DNA of 64,000 nt from a virus, in the IMG/VR virus record IMGVR_UViG_3300044712_002679, positions 116,406-180,405 of that record; one strand, written 5' to 3'. Position numbers and translations under genes: made by a program. The notes under the pieces were generated by a model, which had not been told where the DNA came from, made no database searches, and worked only from the letters and a program-made list of their open reading frames with translations. Of the stretch, positions 7,978 through 40,418 are shown one piece after another (positions within the stretch are counted from its first letter, which is position 1; each line of letters begins with the position of its first letter).

Positions 7978-8053
7978 TGGACTGTATCGGATTTGCACCG
8001 ATTGTTAGCATAATTACTTTTTTGGTTTGCTATGCTTCAAAAAGCAACAGCCC
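7978..8053 (-). tRNA. tRNA-like gene with 17-nt anticodon loop and 4-nt D loop (probable pseudogene or non-canonical tRNA)
   Basis: Acceptor GGGCTGT/ACAGTCC, T arm ATCGG-TGCAAAT-CCGAT, stem TAGCA/TGCTA enclosing AACCAAAAAAGTAATTA; same 3' trailer as the two tRNA-Phe genes. Confidence 0.35.
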
Positions 8054-8055
8054 AT

Positions 8056-8676
8056 TTATTTTTTATATTTATTTTTATTTTTTCCACCATGTGTATCTAA
8101 TGTTGCATTACAATTTGGACATAATATTCTTAAATTTGTTAATCTATGATCATTATTTATCCCATTTATATGATCTAATATTAAACTTATATGTTTTCCT
8201 TTCCAATTTTCATCTTGTCCACACATTTCACACTTTCTTTTTTTTAATCCATCTTCATATAATCTTTCTTTCAAATGTGTTGTATTAAAATTGGAATTTT
8301 CAACTAATATTAATGATAAATCTATTTTTTTATTTAAATTTTTTATTTGAAATTCATATTTAATAAAATGATCAATATTTATATCATATTTTTTAATATA
8401 TTTTTTTAATGTGTTATAAGAAGAACCAAAATTATTAATATCTAATTTAATTAAACATTCTTTATATGTTTTTGAATTTTTAACAATTTCAATTAAATAA
8501 TCTTTTTCATATTTATTTTTTACACTATAATGTGCTTCTATTTTTAATTTTTTTCGTCTTTCCTCAATTGATCTTATTGATCTATCTAATTTAGTTAAAC
8601 AATATTTTAAACCATAAATAGGATAATTTTCAATCAATATATCATCTTCATTTTTTGTCCATTTTTTATTTTTCAT
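8056..8676 (-). CDS. HNH homing endonuclease (free-standing)
   Basis: CEMCGQDENWKGKHISLILDHINGINNDHRLTNLRILCPNCNA = HNH core with flanking CxxC pairs; embedded in tRNA array. Confidence 0.85.
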   Translation of the reverse strand: MKNKKWTKNEDDILIENYPIYGLKYCLTKLDRSIRSIEERRKKLKIEAHYSVKNKYEKDYLIEIVKNSKTYKECLIKLDINNFGSSYNTLKKYIKKYDINIDHFIKYEFQIKNLNKKIDLSLILVENSNFNTTHLKERLYEDGLKKRKCEMCGQDENWKGKHISLILDHINGINNDHRLTNLRILCPNCNATLDTHGGKNKNKYKK

Positions 8677-8767
8677 TTTAAGTTATTTTTTGTAGTATAT
8701 ATAAATATTTTAAACTACAAAAAATCACTATGAACTATAAAAATTCAAAAAAATAGTTATGGGAATG

Positions 8768-8848
8768 CACGACAGAGAGGATTCGAACCCCTGAACCTTT
8801 CGGTATAGTTTTGGAGACTATCAGCTTTAACCACTTGCATACTGCCGT
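8768..8848 (-). tRNA. Class II (long variable arm) tRNA, anticodon CCA (Trp codon UGG), discriminator G
   Basis: Acceptor ACGGCAG/CTGTCGT, class II-type D loop AAGTGGTTAAA, anticodon arm ATAGT-CTCCAAA-ACTAT, variable arm ACC-GAAA-GGT, T arm AGGGG-TTCGAAT-CCTCT; 81 nt. Confidence 0.65.
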
Positions 8849-8857
8849 ATATTTTTG

Positions 8858-8941
8858 CGGAGGCGAAGGGAATCGAACCCCCAAATCATTACTGATTTAC
8901 TTGTTTTCAAGACAAGCCCCTCGTCCATTCGGACCACCTCC
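8858..8941 (-). tRNA. tRNA-Ser (UGA), class II
   Basis: Acceptor GGAGGTG/CGCCTCC, anticodon arm CTTGT-CTTGAAA-ACAAG, variable arm AAATCA..TGATTT, T loop TTCGATT, discriminator G. Confidence 0.85.
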
Positions 8942-8991
8942 AAATACAATTTAAAAGATTGTTCGTTATTTTTTGCTGTATGTATTCTTTG
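8942..8991 (-). repeat. Spacer with conserved trailer and free anticodon-arm-like hairpin (loop CUUUUAA)
   Basis: CAAAGAATACATACAGCAAAAAA trailer after tRNA-Phe; ACAAT-CTTTTAA-ATTGT at 8946..8962, loop identical to the two UUU-anticodon tRNAs. Confidence 0.65.
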
Positions 8992-9067
8992 TGGGGTGAG
9001 GTGGATTCGAACCACCATCCCTGGATTTTCAGTCCAGTGCGAAACTGACCAACTGCGCTACCACCCC
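8992..9067 (-). tRNA. tRNA-Phe (GAA), canonical T-loop
   Basis: Acceptor GGGGTGG/TCACCCC, anticodon arm CTGGA-CTGAAAA-TCCAG, T arm GGTGG-TTCGAAT-CCACC, discriminator A. Confidence 0.9.
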
Positions 9068-9084
9068 AATAAGTATAACGTATG

Positions 9085-9157
9085 TGCGTCTGGTGGGTCA
9101 CGATCCCACGACTCCATCATTAAAAGTGATGTACTCTACCAACTGAGTTACAGACGC
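9085..9157 (-). tRNA. tRNA-Lys (UUU), swapped T-loop ATCGTGA
   Basis: Acceptor GCGTCTG/CAGACGC, D arm ACTC-AGTTGGTA-GAGT, anticodon arm CATCA-CTTTTAA-TGATG, T arm GTGGG-ATCGTGA-CCCAC, discriminator A. Confidence 0.8.
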
Positions 9158-9196
9158 AAAAATATTCAATATGTCAATGAACTTTAAAAAAAATTG

Positions 9197-9282
9197 TGAT
9201 CCCGATGGGACTCGAACCCATGTACAACTTTCGTATCCCACATTAAAAGTGTGGTGCCTCGTTCCAACTCGGCCACGGAATC
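9197..9282 (-). tRNA. Class II (long variable arm) tRNA, anticodon UUU (Lys), discriminator A
   Basis: Base-by-base reverse complement: GATTCCG TG GCC GAGTTGGAACGA GGC A CCACA CTTTTAA TGTGG GATACGAAAGTTGTAC ATGGG TTCGAGT CCCAT CGGGATC A; Ser-like D arm; 86 nt. Confidence 0.7.
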
Positions 9283-28620: not shown

Positions 28621-29154
28621 ATGAAGCAAAAAGAATCAGAAAACAGAATTAATTATTCAATTAAAGATTTAACCGTAAGGTTAGTTGGTGATAATGTTAC
28701 AAATGGTGTAATTGACACTAAAAGTGCAATAAAATTGGCTAGAGATATGGAATTAGATTTGGTCGAAATTTCGGGTCCAGTTAACGGAAATCCATCAATT
28801 TGCAAAATAGTTGACTATCAAAAATATCTTTACGACAAAAAGAAAAAAGATAAAGATCAAAAGAAAAAGCAAAAATTAAGTCAGTCAGAAGTCAAAGAAA
28901 TTAGAATGACCCCGCATACTGATGAACACGATTTTAATTTTAAATTAAATCATGCTAAAAACTTCTTAACCAATAACGATAAAGTATTAGTTTCAGTATT
29001 CTTTAAGGGTAGAGAAATATCATATAAAGAACAAGGTCAAATTGTTTTATTAAAATTTGCAAAGGAATTGGAAGATATTGGCATACCTGAGTATTTACCT
29101 AAACTAGAAGGAAAAAAAATGCTAATGATGATTAAACCTAAACCAAAAAAATAA
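28621..29154 (+). CDS. infC: Translation initiation factor IF-3
   Basis: RINYSIKDLTVRLVGDN...MELDLVEIS...PSICKIVDYQKYLYDKKKK...VKEIRMTPHTDEHDFNFKLNHAKNFL...VFFKGREISYKEQG aligns along the full length with E. coli IF3. Confidence 0.9.
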   Translation: MKQKESENRINYSIKDLTVRLVGDNVTNGVIDTKSAIKLARDMELDLVEISGPVNGNPSICKIVDYQKYLYDKKKKDKDQKKKQKLSQSEVKEIRMTPHTDEHDFNFKLNHAKNFLTNNDKVLVSVFFKGREISYKEQGQIVLLKFAKELEDIGIPEYLPKLEGKKMLMMIKPKPKK

Positions 29155-39680: not shown

Positions 39681-40418
39681 ATGTCAAAAATAATCGAATT
39701 AATAAAGATCCATTTTGGTGATAATTCATTTACACCATATGGGCAATGGATTAAAATATTTAAACTTTTTGTTGAAAATTCATCTGAATCAACCAAACAT
39801 AAAATTGATCAAATAGATGAATTTATAAATAAATGGATTGAAAAAGAATATGGTGATTGGTCTATTCCAAATACAATTATAGAAGCCAAAGAAAAATTAG
39901 AAAATAAAATTAATGTTTTTTATGAAATATTAAAAGAATATTCTATAAATAATGAAAAAATTAAAAAAATTATAATAATTCCTGATACTAATGCGCTAAT
40001 ACAAAAACCTGATCCAAAGTCATATAAACAATTAATGAATAACGATAATCTAACGATTATTTTTTTACCTACTGTGTTAAGTGAACTAGATGAACTTAAA
40101 ATTAAAACTTCAAATTTAGATTTTCAAGAAAAAGTAAAATCAGTAATAAATAGATTAAAAGGATATAGAAAACAAGGCAACTTAATTGATGATGATGTAA
40201 CAGTCGAAAAAACAATAAAACTTAAAATGGTTGCATCAGAACCAAATTTTGATAAAACGTTATCTTGGCTTGATAGAAATAACAATGATGATCGGATAGT
40301 TGCAAGTGCATTAGAAATTCAACGGGATAATCCTTCTTCTGTTGTTTGTTTAATAACAAGTGACATAAATTTTCAAAATAAAATAATGATGGCAAAATTA
40401 CCATACAAAGATATATAG
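39681..40418 (+). CDS. PIN-domain protein (putative ribonuclease)
   Basis: C-terminal half: IIIPDTNALI, LPTVLSELDEL, NNNDDRIVASAL, LITSDINFQNK supply the four acidic PIN positions in order. Confidence 0.65.
   Translation: MSKIIELIKIHFGDNSFTPYGQWIKIFKLFVENSSESTKHKIDQIDEFINKWIEKEYGDWSIPNTIIEAKEKLENKINVFYEILKEYSINNEKIKKIIIIPDTNALIQKPDPKSYKQLMNNDNLTIIFLPTVLSELDELKIKTSNLDFQEKVKSVINRLKGYRKQGNLIDDDVTVEKTIKLKMVASEPNFDKTLSWLDRNNNDDRIVASALEIQRDNPSSVVCLITSDINFQNKIMMAKLPYKDI

What the first reader, a model, noticed from the sequence alone, without database searches (positions are those of the whole stretch)
8768..8848. Class II tRNA carrying the Trp anticodon CCA with discriminator G
This is an 81-nt tRNA with a class II-type D loop (AAGTGGTTAAA) and a variable-arm helix (ACC-GAAA-GGT). 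Its anticodon arm is ATAGT-CUCCAAA-ACTAT, so the anticodon is CCA. The discriminator is G73, which together with CCA is the E. coli TrpRS identity set. A normal 72-nt tRNA-Trp(CCA) is also present (5187..5258). This is the same phenomenon as the Lys cases: a second, re-scaffolded copy of a tRNA.
Basis: partly seen in the sequence, partly recalled or inferred. Interest (0 to 1): 0.75.

Follow-up and report, generated by a model that had tools for sequence, protein, structure and literature searches.

The report
Phage tryptophan tRNA with an extra arm
This is a real tryptophan tRNA gene of a very large phage that carries an extra hairpin normally seen only in serine, leucine and tyrosine tRNAs, and it belongs to a widespread phage family of such tRNAs that I could not find described in the literature.

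Summary
Window 8848..8768 (minus strand) is an 81-nt tRNA with anticodon CCA, A1-U72, G73, a 3-bp D stem with an 11-nt loop, and a 12-nt variable region forming a small GAAA-capped hairpin.

It is not a one-off. A pattern scan of viral contigs found 104 loci, about 65 distinct sequences, mostly on contigs over 100 kb and including the Lak megaphages. All five helices covary, including the extra arm. A family model scores the window copy at 78 bits.

The family keeps the bacterial Trp identity set: G73 in 65 of 67, and A-U, G.U or U-A at 1:72 in 63 of 67. It lacks the G1-C72/G2-C71 pairs that tRNA-Ser from the same contigs keeps. Its arm geometry matches tRNA-Tyr, not tRNA-Ser. In near-complete phage tRNA arrays it is the only Trp tRNA.

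The best reading is therefore a working, Trp-charged tRNA that reads UGG. Why it has the extra arm is unknown.

In passing: relatives with a UCA anticodon carry a copy of the Trp anticodon loop (CUCCAAA) on the extra arm. Long-armed Lys, Cys, Thr and other tRNAs occur in the same phages.

The parts
8768..8848 (-). Long-armed (class II-type) tRNA-Trp(CCA), 81 nt; position 1 is at 8848 and discriminator G73 at 8768
   Evidence: ARAGORN; Rfam tRNA 46.8 bits; family model R1 78.2 bits, full length
8842..8848 (-). Acceptor stem 5' strand ACGGCAG; pairs with 8769-8775 (CUGUCGU). Gives A1-U72, C2-G71, G3-C70
   Evidence: Read from the sequence; R1 alignment
8823..8839 (-). D arm: UGC / AAGUGGUUAAA / GCU. 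A 3-position stem whose outer pair is a U10.U25 mismatch, with an 11-nt loop holding G18 G19
   Evidence: R1 alignment flags this single non-standard pair; the D stem covaries in relatives
8805..8821 (-). Anticodon arm AUAGU-CUCCAAA-ACUAU; anticodon C34 C35 A36 lies at 8814-8812
8793..8804 (-). Variable region, 12 nt: A-CC-GAAA-GG-UUC (or ACC-GAAA-GGU-UC). A mini-hairpin capped by a GNRA tetraloop
   Evidence: MFE fold; R1 alignment; all three pairs of the equivalent hairpin covary in relatives
8776..8792 (-). T arm AGGGG-UUCGAAU-CCUCU
8768..8768 (-). Discriminator G73; no CCA end is encoded (the next bases are CAU)
   Evidence: G73 in 65 of 67 family members
5187..5258 (-). Ordinary short (class I) tRNA-Trp(CCA) in the same array, also with A1-U72 and G73
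   Evidence: ARAGORN; Rfam 56 bits; acceptor read-out
5091..9282 (-). The tRNA array that holds the gene: Lys, Trp, His, Ser, Phe, Ser, Trp, Ser, Phe and Lys genes, interleaved with homing-endonuclease ORFs
   Evidence: Pfam hits GIY-YIG for 6186-7097 and HNH for 8056-8676

Best explanation
The gene encodes a working tryptophan tRNA of a huge, AT-rich phage. It is most likely charged with tryptophan by a bacterial-type TrpRS, through the anticodon CCA, G73 and A1-U72, and it most likely reads UGG on the ribosome like any tRNA-Trp.

It differs in its body. It has a class II-type core: a 3-bp D stem with an 11-nt D loop, plus a small extra hairpin in the variable region. The hairpin has the geometry of bacterial tRNA-Tyr: 1 nt, a 2-4 bp stem, a tetraloop, then 3 nt.

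It is one member of a phage-specific family that serves as the Trp tRNA of many large phages.

Shown here:
- the structure and its conservation and covariation;
- the retained identity elements;
- the family's role as the sole Trp tRNA in near-complete arrays.

Inferred:
- charging by TrpRS.

Speculative:
- the purpose of the arm. My preferred guess is that it makes phage tRNAs structurally distinct from host tRNAs, helping them escape tRNA-targeting nucleases or be handled separately. It may instead simply be required to stabilise the class II-type core.
For: 1. It is a real tRNA: ARAGORN and Rfam; family model R1 at 78.2 bits.
2. It belongs to a family. There are 104 viral-contig loci and about 65 distinct sequences, plus the Lak megaphages.
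3. The structure is under selection. In 16 gapless members, 100% of cells pair and 19 of 23 pairs show compensatory changes, including all 3 extra-arm pairs; slid controls pair at 30-42%. Extra-arm stems average 3.61 bp against 2.85 +/- 0.09 in shuffles.
4. Trp identity is retained: G73 in 65 of 67; 1:72 is A-U 42, G.U 14, U-A 7. The short Trp tRNAs of the same phages show the same pattern. It matches the bacterial Trp identity set in PMC9976931.
5. It is not Ser-like. tRNA-Ser from the same loci keeps G1-C72 (47/51), G2-C71 (50/51) and A3-U70 (46/51), which this family lacks. Ser arms are 5-6 bp with 1 nt on the 3' side; this family has 3 bp with 3 nt, like Tyr.
6. It is not Tyr or Leu: those have A73 in 30/31 and 54/57.
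7. It acts as the Trp tRNA. 91 loci hold only the long form, and arrays covering 19-21 amino-acid types have it as their only Trp(CCA).
8. Long-armed Lys tRNAs keep A73 and long-armed Cys keep U73, so the discriminator follows the anticodon.
9. The window shows no sign of stop-codon recoding: reading TGA or TAG as sense barely lengthens the longest ORFs, and both are used as stops.
Against: - No charging or expression data exist.
- The window copy has a U10.U25 mismatch, leaving two Watson-Crick D-stem pairs, and the shortest arm in the family. This particular copy could be weakened.
- It is redundant with the normal tRNA-Trp at 5187-5258.
- Folding energy does not stand out from shuffles.
- G73 plus an extra arm are also part of the Ser identity set, so some serylation cannot be excluded from sequence alone.
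- No tool result bears on the proposed purpose of the arm.
Confidence: 0.72

Rival explanations
1. It is a serine-accepting missense tRNA. SerRS ignores the anticodon and recognises the extra arm and G73, so the tRNA would insert Ser at UGG codons, like allo-tRNAs or nematode nev-tRNAs.
For: - It has an extra arm, G73 and a Ser-like D arm. The nearest BLAST hits in cultured phages are tRNA-Ser.
- CGA to CCA is a single base change.
- Rare bacterial MAG tRNAs do combine a CCA anticodon with Ser-type acceptor stems.
Against: - G1-C72, G2-C71 and A3-U70, nearly invariant in phage tRNA-Ser (47-50 of 51), are absent. The window copy has A1-U72 and C2-G71. In E. coli tRNA-Leu, C2-G71 is an antideterminant against SerRS (PMC9976931).
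- The arm is 2-3 bp with 3 unpaired nt on the 3' side, against 5-6 bp and 1 nt in Ser.
- The family is the only Trp tRNA in near-complete arrays.
Confidence: 0.06
2. This particular copy is a decaying duplicate (pseudogene) in an array churned by homing endonucleases. Only the normal tRNA-Trp at 5187-5258 would be used.
For: - It has a U10.U25 mismatch and the shortest variable hairpin in the family.
- It is redundant with a canonical Trp gene.
- The same array holds tRNA-like sequences that are interrupted or score low.
Against: - The universally conserved tRNA positions I checked by eye are intact: U8, A14, G18 G19, U33, T54 T55 C56, A58 and C61.
- All other 20 modelled pairs are standard.
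- Its 78 bits lie inside the family range of 64-103.
- Another member also has a 10:25 mismatch: L010, read from the sequence.
- Ten loci carry both long and short Trp genes.
Confidence: 0.12
3. It is a tRNA-shaped RNA with a non-decoding role, such as a decoy or sponge for a host tRNA-targeting nuclease, or a regulator, rather than an adaptor used in translation.
For: - Phage tRNAs that neutralise tRNA-cleaving defences are known (PARIS, retron effectors and anticodon nucleases; PMC11464382, PMC11555353 and PMC10264068, listed).
- The gene is redundant with a normal Trp tRNA.
Against: - The complete identity set, the canonical anticodon loop CUCCAAA and the 7/5 acceptor/T architecture are all conserved.
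- It is the sole Trp tRNA in many arrays. A pure decoy would not need all of this.
- The known phage counter-defence tRNAs also work as tRNAs, so this is more an added role than a true rival.
Confidence: 0.07

Closest known systems
Bacterial tRNA-Trp (class I; e.g. E. coli or B. subtilis tRNA-Trp)
   Same: Anticodon loop CUCCAAA, discriminator G73, A1-U72, and a 7/5 acceptor/T architecture. The window's own short tRNA-Trp (5187-5258) shares these.
   Different: Canonical tRNA-Trp has a 4-5 nt variable loop and a 4-bp D stem. This one has a 12-nt variable region with a hairpin, and a 3-position D stem with an 11-nt loop.
Bacterial tRNA-Tyr (class II)
   Same: Extra-arm geometry: 1 nt, 3 bp, a 3-4 nt loop, then 3 unpaired nt. 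D arm of the GAGYGGYYAAA type. TyrRS and TrpRS are sister class Ic enzymes (established knowledge).
   Different: Tyr has A73, G1-C72 and anticodon GUA. None of these is present here.
tRNA-Ser, and Ser-identity tRNAs with foreign anticodons (allo-tRNAs, Mukai 2017, PMC5389517; nematode nev-tRNAs, Hamashima 2016, cited there)
   Same: An extra arm combined with an anticodon that does not belong to Ser, Leu or Tyr; G73.
   Different: Allo-tRNAs have 8/4 or 9/3 acceptor/T stems, long arms and Ser identity, and are thought to mistranslate or regulate. This tRNA is 7/5, has a tiny arm, lacks G1-C72/G2-C71, and keeps the identity set that matches its own anticodon.
SelC* tRNA-Cys (Mukai 2017, PMC5389517)
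   Same: A class I amino-acid identity (U73, GCA) carried on a long-armed scaffold.
   Different: SelC* mimics tRNA-Sec (modified 8/4, long stems) and occurs in anaerobic bacteria. The phage Trp family has a canonical 7/5 body.
Phage tRNAs that evade tRNA-targeting defences (PMC10264068; T5 tRNA-Lys versus PARIS, PMC11464382)
   Same: Phage-encoded duplicates of host isoacceptors whose sequence differs from the host tRNA.
   Different: According to the title and abstract of PMC10264068, the known cases change the anticodon loop. Here the loop is canonical and the difference lies in the core and variable arm. No link to defence was tested.

Membership tests
tRNA (Rfam RF00005) | Cloverleaf with conserved core nucleotides, scoring above the curated threshold | tested here: met
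   46.8 bits against a gathering score of 29; ARAGORN call
Bacterial tRNA-Trp identity | Anticodon C34 C35 A36 | tested here: met
   Loop CUCCAAA at 8816-8810
Bacterial tRNA-Trp identity | Discriminator G73 | tested here: met
   G at 8768; G73 in 65 of 67 family members; identity set per PMC9976931
Bacterial tRNA-Trp identity | A1-U72 first pair | tested here: met
   A at 8848 pairs with U at 8769; A-U in 42 of 67 members, G.U in 14, U-A in 7
Bacterial tRNA-Trp identity | Aminoacylation with Trp by TrpRS | not testable with these tools
   Needs an aminoacylation assay
Class II (long-variable-arm) tRNA | Variable region of 10 or more nt (definition quoted in PMC7609411) | tested here: met
   12 nt, 8804-8793
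Class II (long-variable-arm) tRNA | The variable region forms a stem-loop that is conserved | tested here: met
   CC/GG (or ACC/GGU) with a GAAA loop. The equivalent 3 pairs all covary in relatives. The window stem is minimal, at 2-3 bp
Class II (long-variable-arm) tRNA | Amino-acid family is Leu, Ser, bacterial Tyr or Sec | tested here: not met
   Anticodon CCA with a Trp-type acceptor end. This is what makes it unusual
tRNA-Ser (SerRS substrate) | G1-C72 and G2-C71, conserved in bacterial tRNA-Ser | tested here: not met
   A1-U72 and C2-G71 here; tRNA-Ser of the same phage loci has G-C at 47/51 and 50/51; PMC9976931
tRNA-Ser (SerRS substrate) | Long extra arm with Ser-type size and orientation | tested here: not met
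   Ser: 5-6 bp with 1 nt on the 3' side. This family: 3 bp with 3 nt. Window copy: 2-3 bp
tRNA-Tyr / tRNA-Leu (bacterial) | Discriminator A73 | tested here: not met
   G73 here; phage Tyr has A73 in 30/31 and Leu in 54/57
Allo-tRNA | 8/4 or 9/3 acceptor/T-stem composition | tested here: not met
   7-bp acceptor stem and 5-bp T stem; definition from PMC5389517
Phage long-armed tRNA-Trp family (model R1, defined here) | Full-length match to the covariance model, in the range of other members | tested here: met
   78.2 bits over positions 1-83; family range about 64-103 bits; other window tRNAs score 44 bits or less

The most novel reading that the evidence does not exclude
Large phages may maintain a parallel, structurally marked tRNA set. 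Ordinary class I isoacceptors (Trp, Lys, Cys, Thr, Asn, His and others) would be rebuilt on a class II-type body with a small extra hairpin while keeping their cognate identity elements.

On this reading the extra arm is a functional handle, not a relic. It would distinguish phage tRNAs from host tRNAs for nucleases, modification enzymes or synthetases.

In UGA-reading relatives of this Trp family the arm has been elaborated into a full copy of the Trp anticodon stem-loop (CUCCAAA). That copy could keep TrpRS recognition after the real anticodon changed to UCA.
Probability: 0.3. Interest if true: 0.85.

Novelty: new variant of a known kind. Interest (0 to 1): 0.62.

Why it matters
Textbooks and current reviews limit long-variable-arm (class II) tRNAs to Leu, Ser, bacterial Tyr and Sec (PMC7609411, PMC9976931). 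Here a tryptophan tRNA is built on that body plan. It is conserved with compensatory changes across more than 60 distinct phage sequences and serves as the only Trp tRNA in many phage arrays.

The consequences would be:
- TrpRS, and by extension LysRS and CysRS, tolerate an extra arm in nature.
- Phage tRNA sets are structurally more distinct from host sets than has been recognised.
- Annotation pipelines will label these genes correctly by anticodon while missing that their architecture is unusual.

Such naturally evolved scaffolds would also be useful for designing orthogonal tRNAs. The UCA relatives with a pseudo-anticodon on the extra arm would be a natural counterpart of a design so far shown only synthetically (PMC7590224).

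Tried and rejected
- **Mis-specified scans.** The first two viral scans used a D-loop-to-anticodon spacing of 12 nt instead of 13. They returned only 2 loci. The corrected pattern with variable gaps returned 104.
- **Cultured phages.** BLAST of the window tRNA and of two family members against about 50,700 phage records found no long Trp(CCA) other than in the Lak MAGs. The nearest hits were tRNA-Ser and long tRNA-Cys.
- **Stop-codon recoding, or Hirsh-type reading of UGA.** Rejected for this window. Reading TGA or TAG as sense barely lengthens the longest ORFs, and stops are TAA 44, TGA 12, TAG 1.
- **A dedicated phage TrpRS paired with the long tRNA.**
  - No TrpRS is encoded in the window.
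  - A 239-aa mini TrpRS-like gene (PF00579) sits 8 nt downstream of the long Trp in L073.
  - In LR756501, LR756502 and L370-L374 the same gene lies near short Trp tRNAs or none.
  - So there is no specific association.
- **Cellular genomes.** Across 185,579 species genomes the pattern matched 38 loci, of which 19 fold as Trp(CCA) tRNAs. About six of those sit in phage-like multi-tRNA arrays on MAG contigs. Most of the others are solitary and have Ser-type acceptor stems. This is not a host-type tRNA.
- **Folding energy.** Not informative (z -0.34).
- **Literature.** Eight full-text searches found no description of a class II tRNA-Trp or of a natural pseudo-anticodon on a variable arm. The library lacks most subscription journals, so prior description cannot be excluded.
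- **Metagenome scan.** Not used, because the other collections gave enough.

Full report
**1. What is in the window**

The window is AT-rich (about 25% G+C) and looks like part of a huge phage genome.
- It encodes a family B DNA polymerase, translation initiation factor IF3, methyltransferases, a PIN-domain protein and several homing endonucleases.
- Its only extended DNA match in about 50,700 phage records is to the 636-kb uncultured phage LR756504.1.
- On the minus strand between 5091 and 9282 lies an array of at least 14 tRNA genes, interleaved with GIY-YIG and HNH endonuclease ORFs.

The finding is one of these genes, at 8848..8768. Its parts, read from the sequence, are:
- Acceptor stem ACGGCAG/CUGUCGU, with A1-U72, C2-G71 and one G.U.
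- U8 and A9.
- D arm UGC-AAGUGGUUAAA-GCU.
- Anticodon arm AUAGU-CUCCAAA-ACUAU.
- A 12-nt variable region, ACCGAAAGGUUC.
- T arm AGGGG-UUCGAAU-CCUCU.
- Discriminator G73. No CCA end is encoded.

ARAGORN calls it tRNA-Trp(CCA). Rfam's tRNA model gives 46.8 bits. The minimum-free-energy fold is the cloverleaf with an ACC-GAAA-GGU hairpin, although the energy itself is unremarkable (z -0.34).

**2. It is a member of a large phage family**

- *Lak megaphages.* BLAST of the tRNA found a weak match in the Prevotella Lak megaphages. It turned out to be a 92-nt tRNA-Trp(CCA) with a 5-bp extra arm.
- *Viral contigs.* My first pattern scans used the wrong D-loop spacing and found only two loci. The corrected pattern, GTGGT-N11-14-CUCCAAA-N15-40-GGTTCRANTCC, matched 104 stretches of viral contigs. 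ARAGORN called 99 Trp(CCA) tRNAs of 79-92 nt in them, about 65 distinct sequences. Most lie on contigs longer than 100 kb.
- *Covariation.* A gapless alignment of 16 members of 83 nt was tested against a five-helix structure. 100% of cells form standard pairs. 19 of 23 pairs show changes on both sides, including all three pairs of the extra-arm hairpin. Slid controls pair at 30-42%.
- *Arm stems across the family.* Over 66 members the best extra-arm stem averages 3.61 bp, against 2.85 +/- 0.09 in shuffled arms.
- *Family model.* A covariance model of the 16 (R1) scores the window copy 78.2 bits over its full length. That is inside the family range of about 64-103 bits. The window's other tRNAs score 44 bits or less.
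- *Closest relatives.* The nearest are other family members at 80% identity or less.

**3. Which amino acid?**

I tabulated the acceptor end of every distinct long-armed tRNA in the fetched phage loci.

| tRNA class | n | Discriminator (73) | 1:72 | 2:71 and 3:70 |
|---|---|---|---|---|
| Long Trp | 67 | G 65 | A-U 42, G.U 14, U-A 7, G-C 2 | 2:71 C-G 34 |
| Short Trp, same phages | 9 | G 9 | A-U 5, G.U 3 | not tabulated here |
| Ser | 51 | G 37 | G-C 47 | 2:71 G-C 50; 3:70 A-U 46 |
| Tyr | 31 | A 30 | not tabulated here | not tabulated here |
| Leu | 57 | A 54 | not tabulated here | not tabulated here |

What the review literature says (PMC9976931):
- The bacterial Trp identity set is the CCA anticodon, G73 and the first pair A1-U72.
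- G1-C72 and G2-C71 are essentially invariant in bacterial tRNA-Ser.
- C2-G71 in E. coli tRNA-Leu acts as an antideterminant against SerRS.
- G73 acts against LeuRS and TyrRS.

The extra-arm geometry points the same way:
- Long Trp: 1 nt, 3 bp, a 4-nt loop (GAAA in 29 of 68), then 3 nt. This is the geometry of the phage tRNA-Tyr genes.
- Ser arms: 5-6 bp with 1 unpaired nt on the 3' side.
- Leu arms: 2 unpaired nt on the 3' side.

Function in arrays supports this. 91 loci hold only the long Trp form and 10 hold both forms. Arrays covering 19-21 amino-acid types (L087, L003, L009, L096) have the long form as their only Trp(CCA).

Together these results make Trp charging and normal UGG decoding the best-supported reading. 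Charging itself remains an inference.

The window shows no sign of stop-codon recoding. Reading TGA or TAG as sense barely lengthens the longest ORFs, and both are used as stops. A role in reading UGA is therefore not indicated here.

**4. Caveats for this particular copy**

- R1 flags one non-standard pair, U10.U25 at the outer end of the D stem.
- The outer extra-arm pair is deleted relative to the family consensus.
- At least one other member also mismatches at 10:25 (L010, read).
- The universally conserved tRNA positions I checked by eye are present.

I give about 0.12 to the possibility that this copy is a weakened duplicate.

**5. Distribution outside phages**

- The same pattern matched 38 loci across one genome for each of 185,579 species. 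Nineteen of them fold as Trp(CCA) tRNAs.
- About six of these sit in phage-like multi-tRNA arrays on MAG contigs and have the A1/G73 signature.
- Most of the others are solitary genes with Ser-type acceptor stems (GGAGAG..., GGGAGGG...; mostly G73) and long arms.
- Those solitary genes are a different thing. They show what a Ser-identity tRNA with a CCA anticodon looks like.
- Apart from the Lak MAGs, cultured-phage records hold no long Trp(CCA) that BLAST could find.

**6. A wider phenomenon**

- In the same phage loci, ARAGORN finds long-armed versions of Lys, Cys, Thr, Asn, His, Val, Pro, Gln, Met, Glu and Arg tRNAs. The window's own Lys(CUU) at 5092-5178 and Lys(UUU) at 9197-9282 are among them.
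- Their discriminators follow their anticodons: Lys has A73 in 7 of 8 and Cys has U73 in 4 of 4.
- Long Cys tRNAs are the closest non-Trp matches to R1, at 72-74 bits.
- Two cultured phages carry such genes in their GenBank annotation. E. coli phage EcS1 has an 84-nt tRNA-Cys. Xanthomonas phage XacN1 has an 89-nt Cys, a 91-nt Thr and an 89-nt Asn.
- The XacN1 paper does not comment on them.

**7. Why the arm?**

Nothing I could run answers this.
- The anticodon loop is canonical. The known evasion route through anticodon-loop mutations (PMC10264068) therefore does not apply.
- I looked for a dedicated synthetase. A 239-aa TrpRS-like protein (PF00579, with HIGH and KMSKS motifs and a shortened C-terminal part) lies in the tRNA arrays of the 642-kb and 735-kb phages and their relatives.
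- In L073 that gene starts 8 nt downstream of the long Trp gene. The other loci have short Trp tRNAs or none nearby, and the window has no such gene.
- So no specific pairing is supported.

My preferred guess is that the arm marks phage tRNAs as structurally distinct from host tRNAs. This is inference only. A purely structural need of the class II-type core is equally possible.

**8. An observation made in passing that bears on the arm**

- I scanned for the same scaffold with a UCA anticodon. This gave 9 distinct tRNAs of 93-97 nt. All of them have UCCAA in the loop of a long extra arm.
- The comparison sets have none: 0 of 68 long Trp(CCA), 0 of 51 Ser, 0 of 59 Leu and 0 of 31 Tyr.
- A second scan that required the motif found 98 loci and 60 distinct tRNAs. 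Because the motif was imposed, only its placement and the loop size in this set are independent evidence.
- In that set the arm is a 4-7 bp stem that covaries between sequences. It closes a 7-nt loop, GUCCAAA in 19 and CUCCAAA in 16. That is a copy of the Trp anticodon stem-loop.
- G73 occurs in 57 of the 60 and A1-U72 in 46.
- A synthetic pseudo-anticodon on the variable arm has been shown to enhance aminoacylation (PMC7590224). I found no report of a natural one.
- These UCA tRNAs are not in the window, and I did not follow them further.

**9. Literature and novelty**

Eight full-text searches and targeted reading found no description of a class II tRNA-Trp. Reviews restrict class II to Leu, Ser, bacterial Tyr and Sec. 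The library lacks most subscription journals, so an earlier description cannot be excluded.

I rate the finding as a new variant of a known kind. It is a bona fide tRNA-Trp by identity, built on an unexpected body plan, and it is widespread in large phages.

Noticed in passing
L147-L247 (viral contigs), e.g. L179, L190, L155, L147: About 60 distinct 93-100-nt phage tRNAs with anticodon UCA and a Trp-type acceptor end (G73 in 57/60, A1-U72 in 46/60). They carry a long extra arm whose 7-nt loop is GUCCAAA or CUCCAAA, a copy of the Trp anticodon stem-loop. In the scan that did not impose the motif, 9 of 9 had it, against 0 of 68 long Trp(CCA) and 0 of 141 Ser, Leu and Tyr. This may be a natural pseudo-anticodon that retains TrpRS recognition in opal-decoding tRNAs.
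   Followed up: partly
window 5092-5178 (-) and 9197-9282 (-); also L001 7992-8080, L368 5390-5659, L370 9700-9986: Long-armed tRNA-Lys(CUU/UUU) of 82-91 nt with A73 and a 4-bp GNRA-capped extra arm. They recur in arrays of related huge phages.
   Followed up: partly
Many viral loci; L145 2994-3077 (E. coli phage EcS1); L146 339-429, 2972-3060, 3749-3837 (Xanthomonas phage XacN1): Long-armed versions of Cys, Thr, Asn, His, Val, Pro, Gln, Met, Glu and Arg tRNAs occur in the same phages. Cultured phages EcS1 (84-nt tRNA-Cys with U73) and XacN1 (Cys 89, Thr 91 and Asn 89 nt) have them annotated, but the XacN1 paper does not remark on them.
   Followed up: partly
L107, L115, L119, L123, L135, L144 (bacterial MAG or chromosome contigs): Solitary long-armed tRNAs with anticodon CCA but Ser-type acceptor stems (G1-C72, G2-C71; G73 in five, U73 in L107) and 6-7 bp arms. 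They occur in Dehalococcoidia, Acidobacteriota, Saccharibacteria and others, and are candidates for Ser insertion at UGG or for an allo-tRNA-like role.
   Followed up: no
L368 5986-6705; L073 about 8298-9020; L369-L374: A 239-aa TrpRS-like class Ic synthetase (PF00579, with HIGH and KMSKS motifs and a shortened C-terminal region) sits inside the tRNA arrays of 0.5-0.7-Mb phages. It is often directly downstream of long-armed Lys tRNAs, and in L073 it lies 8 nt downstream of the long Trp.
   Followed up: partly
window 5309-5443 (-): A 135-nt match to the whole tRNA model (45.5 bits), with a roughly 60-nt insertion between the D arm and the T arm. ARAGORN does not call it. It may carry an intron or be disrupted.
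   Followed up: no
window 6014-6102 (-) and 7142-7220 (-): A Ser-like long-armed tRNA scoring below the Rfam threshold (25.1 bits). Separately, ARAGORN calls a 79-nt 'His(GUG)' that overlaps tRNA-Ser and has no Rfam support. Both are doubtful genes.
   Followed up: no
window about 8990-8968, 7975-7950 and 7727-7705 (-): A repeated spacer motif, AAAGAAUAC(A/G)(U/C)ACAGCAAAAA, directly follows the two tRNA-Phe genes and a degenerate tRNA-like sequence at about 8056-7975. Each time it precedes a tRNA-Ser, which suggests a duplicated Phe-spacer-Ser unit.
   Followed up: no
window 28621-29154 (+), 39681-40418 (+): The phage encodes a full-length translation initiation factor IF3 and a PIN_4-domain protein, a predicted nuclease fold.
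   Followed up: no
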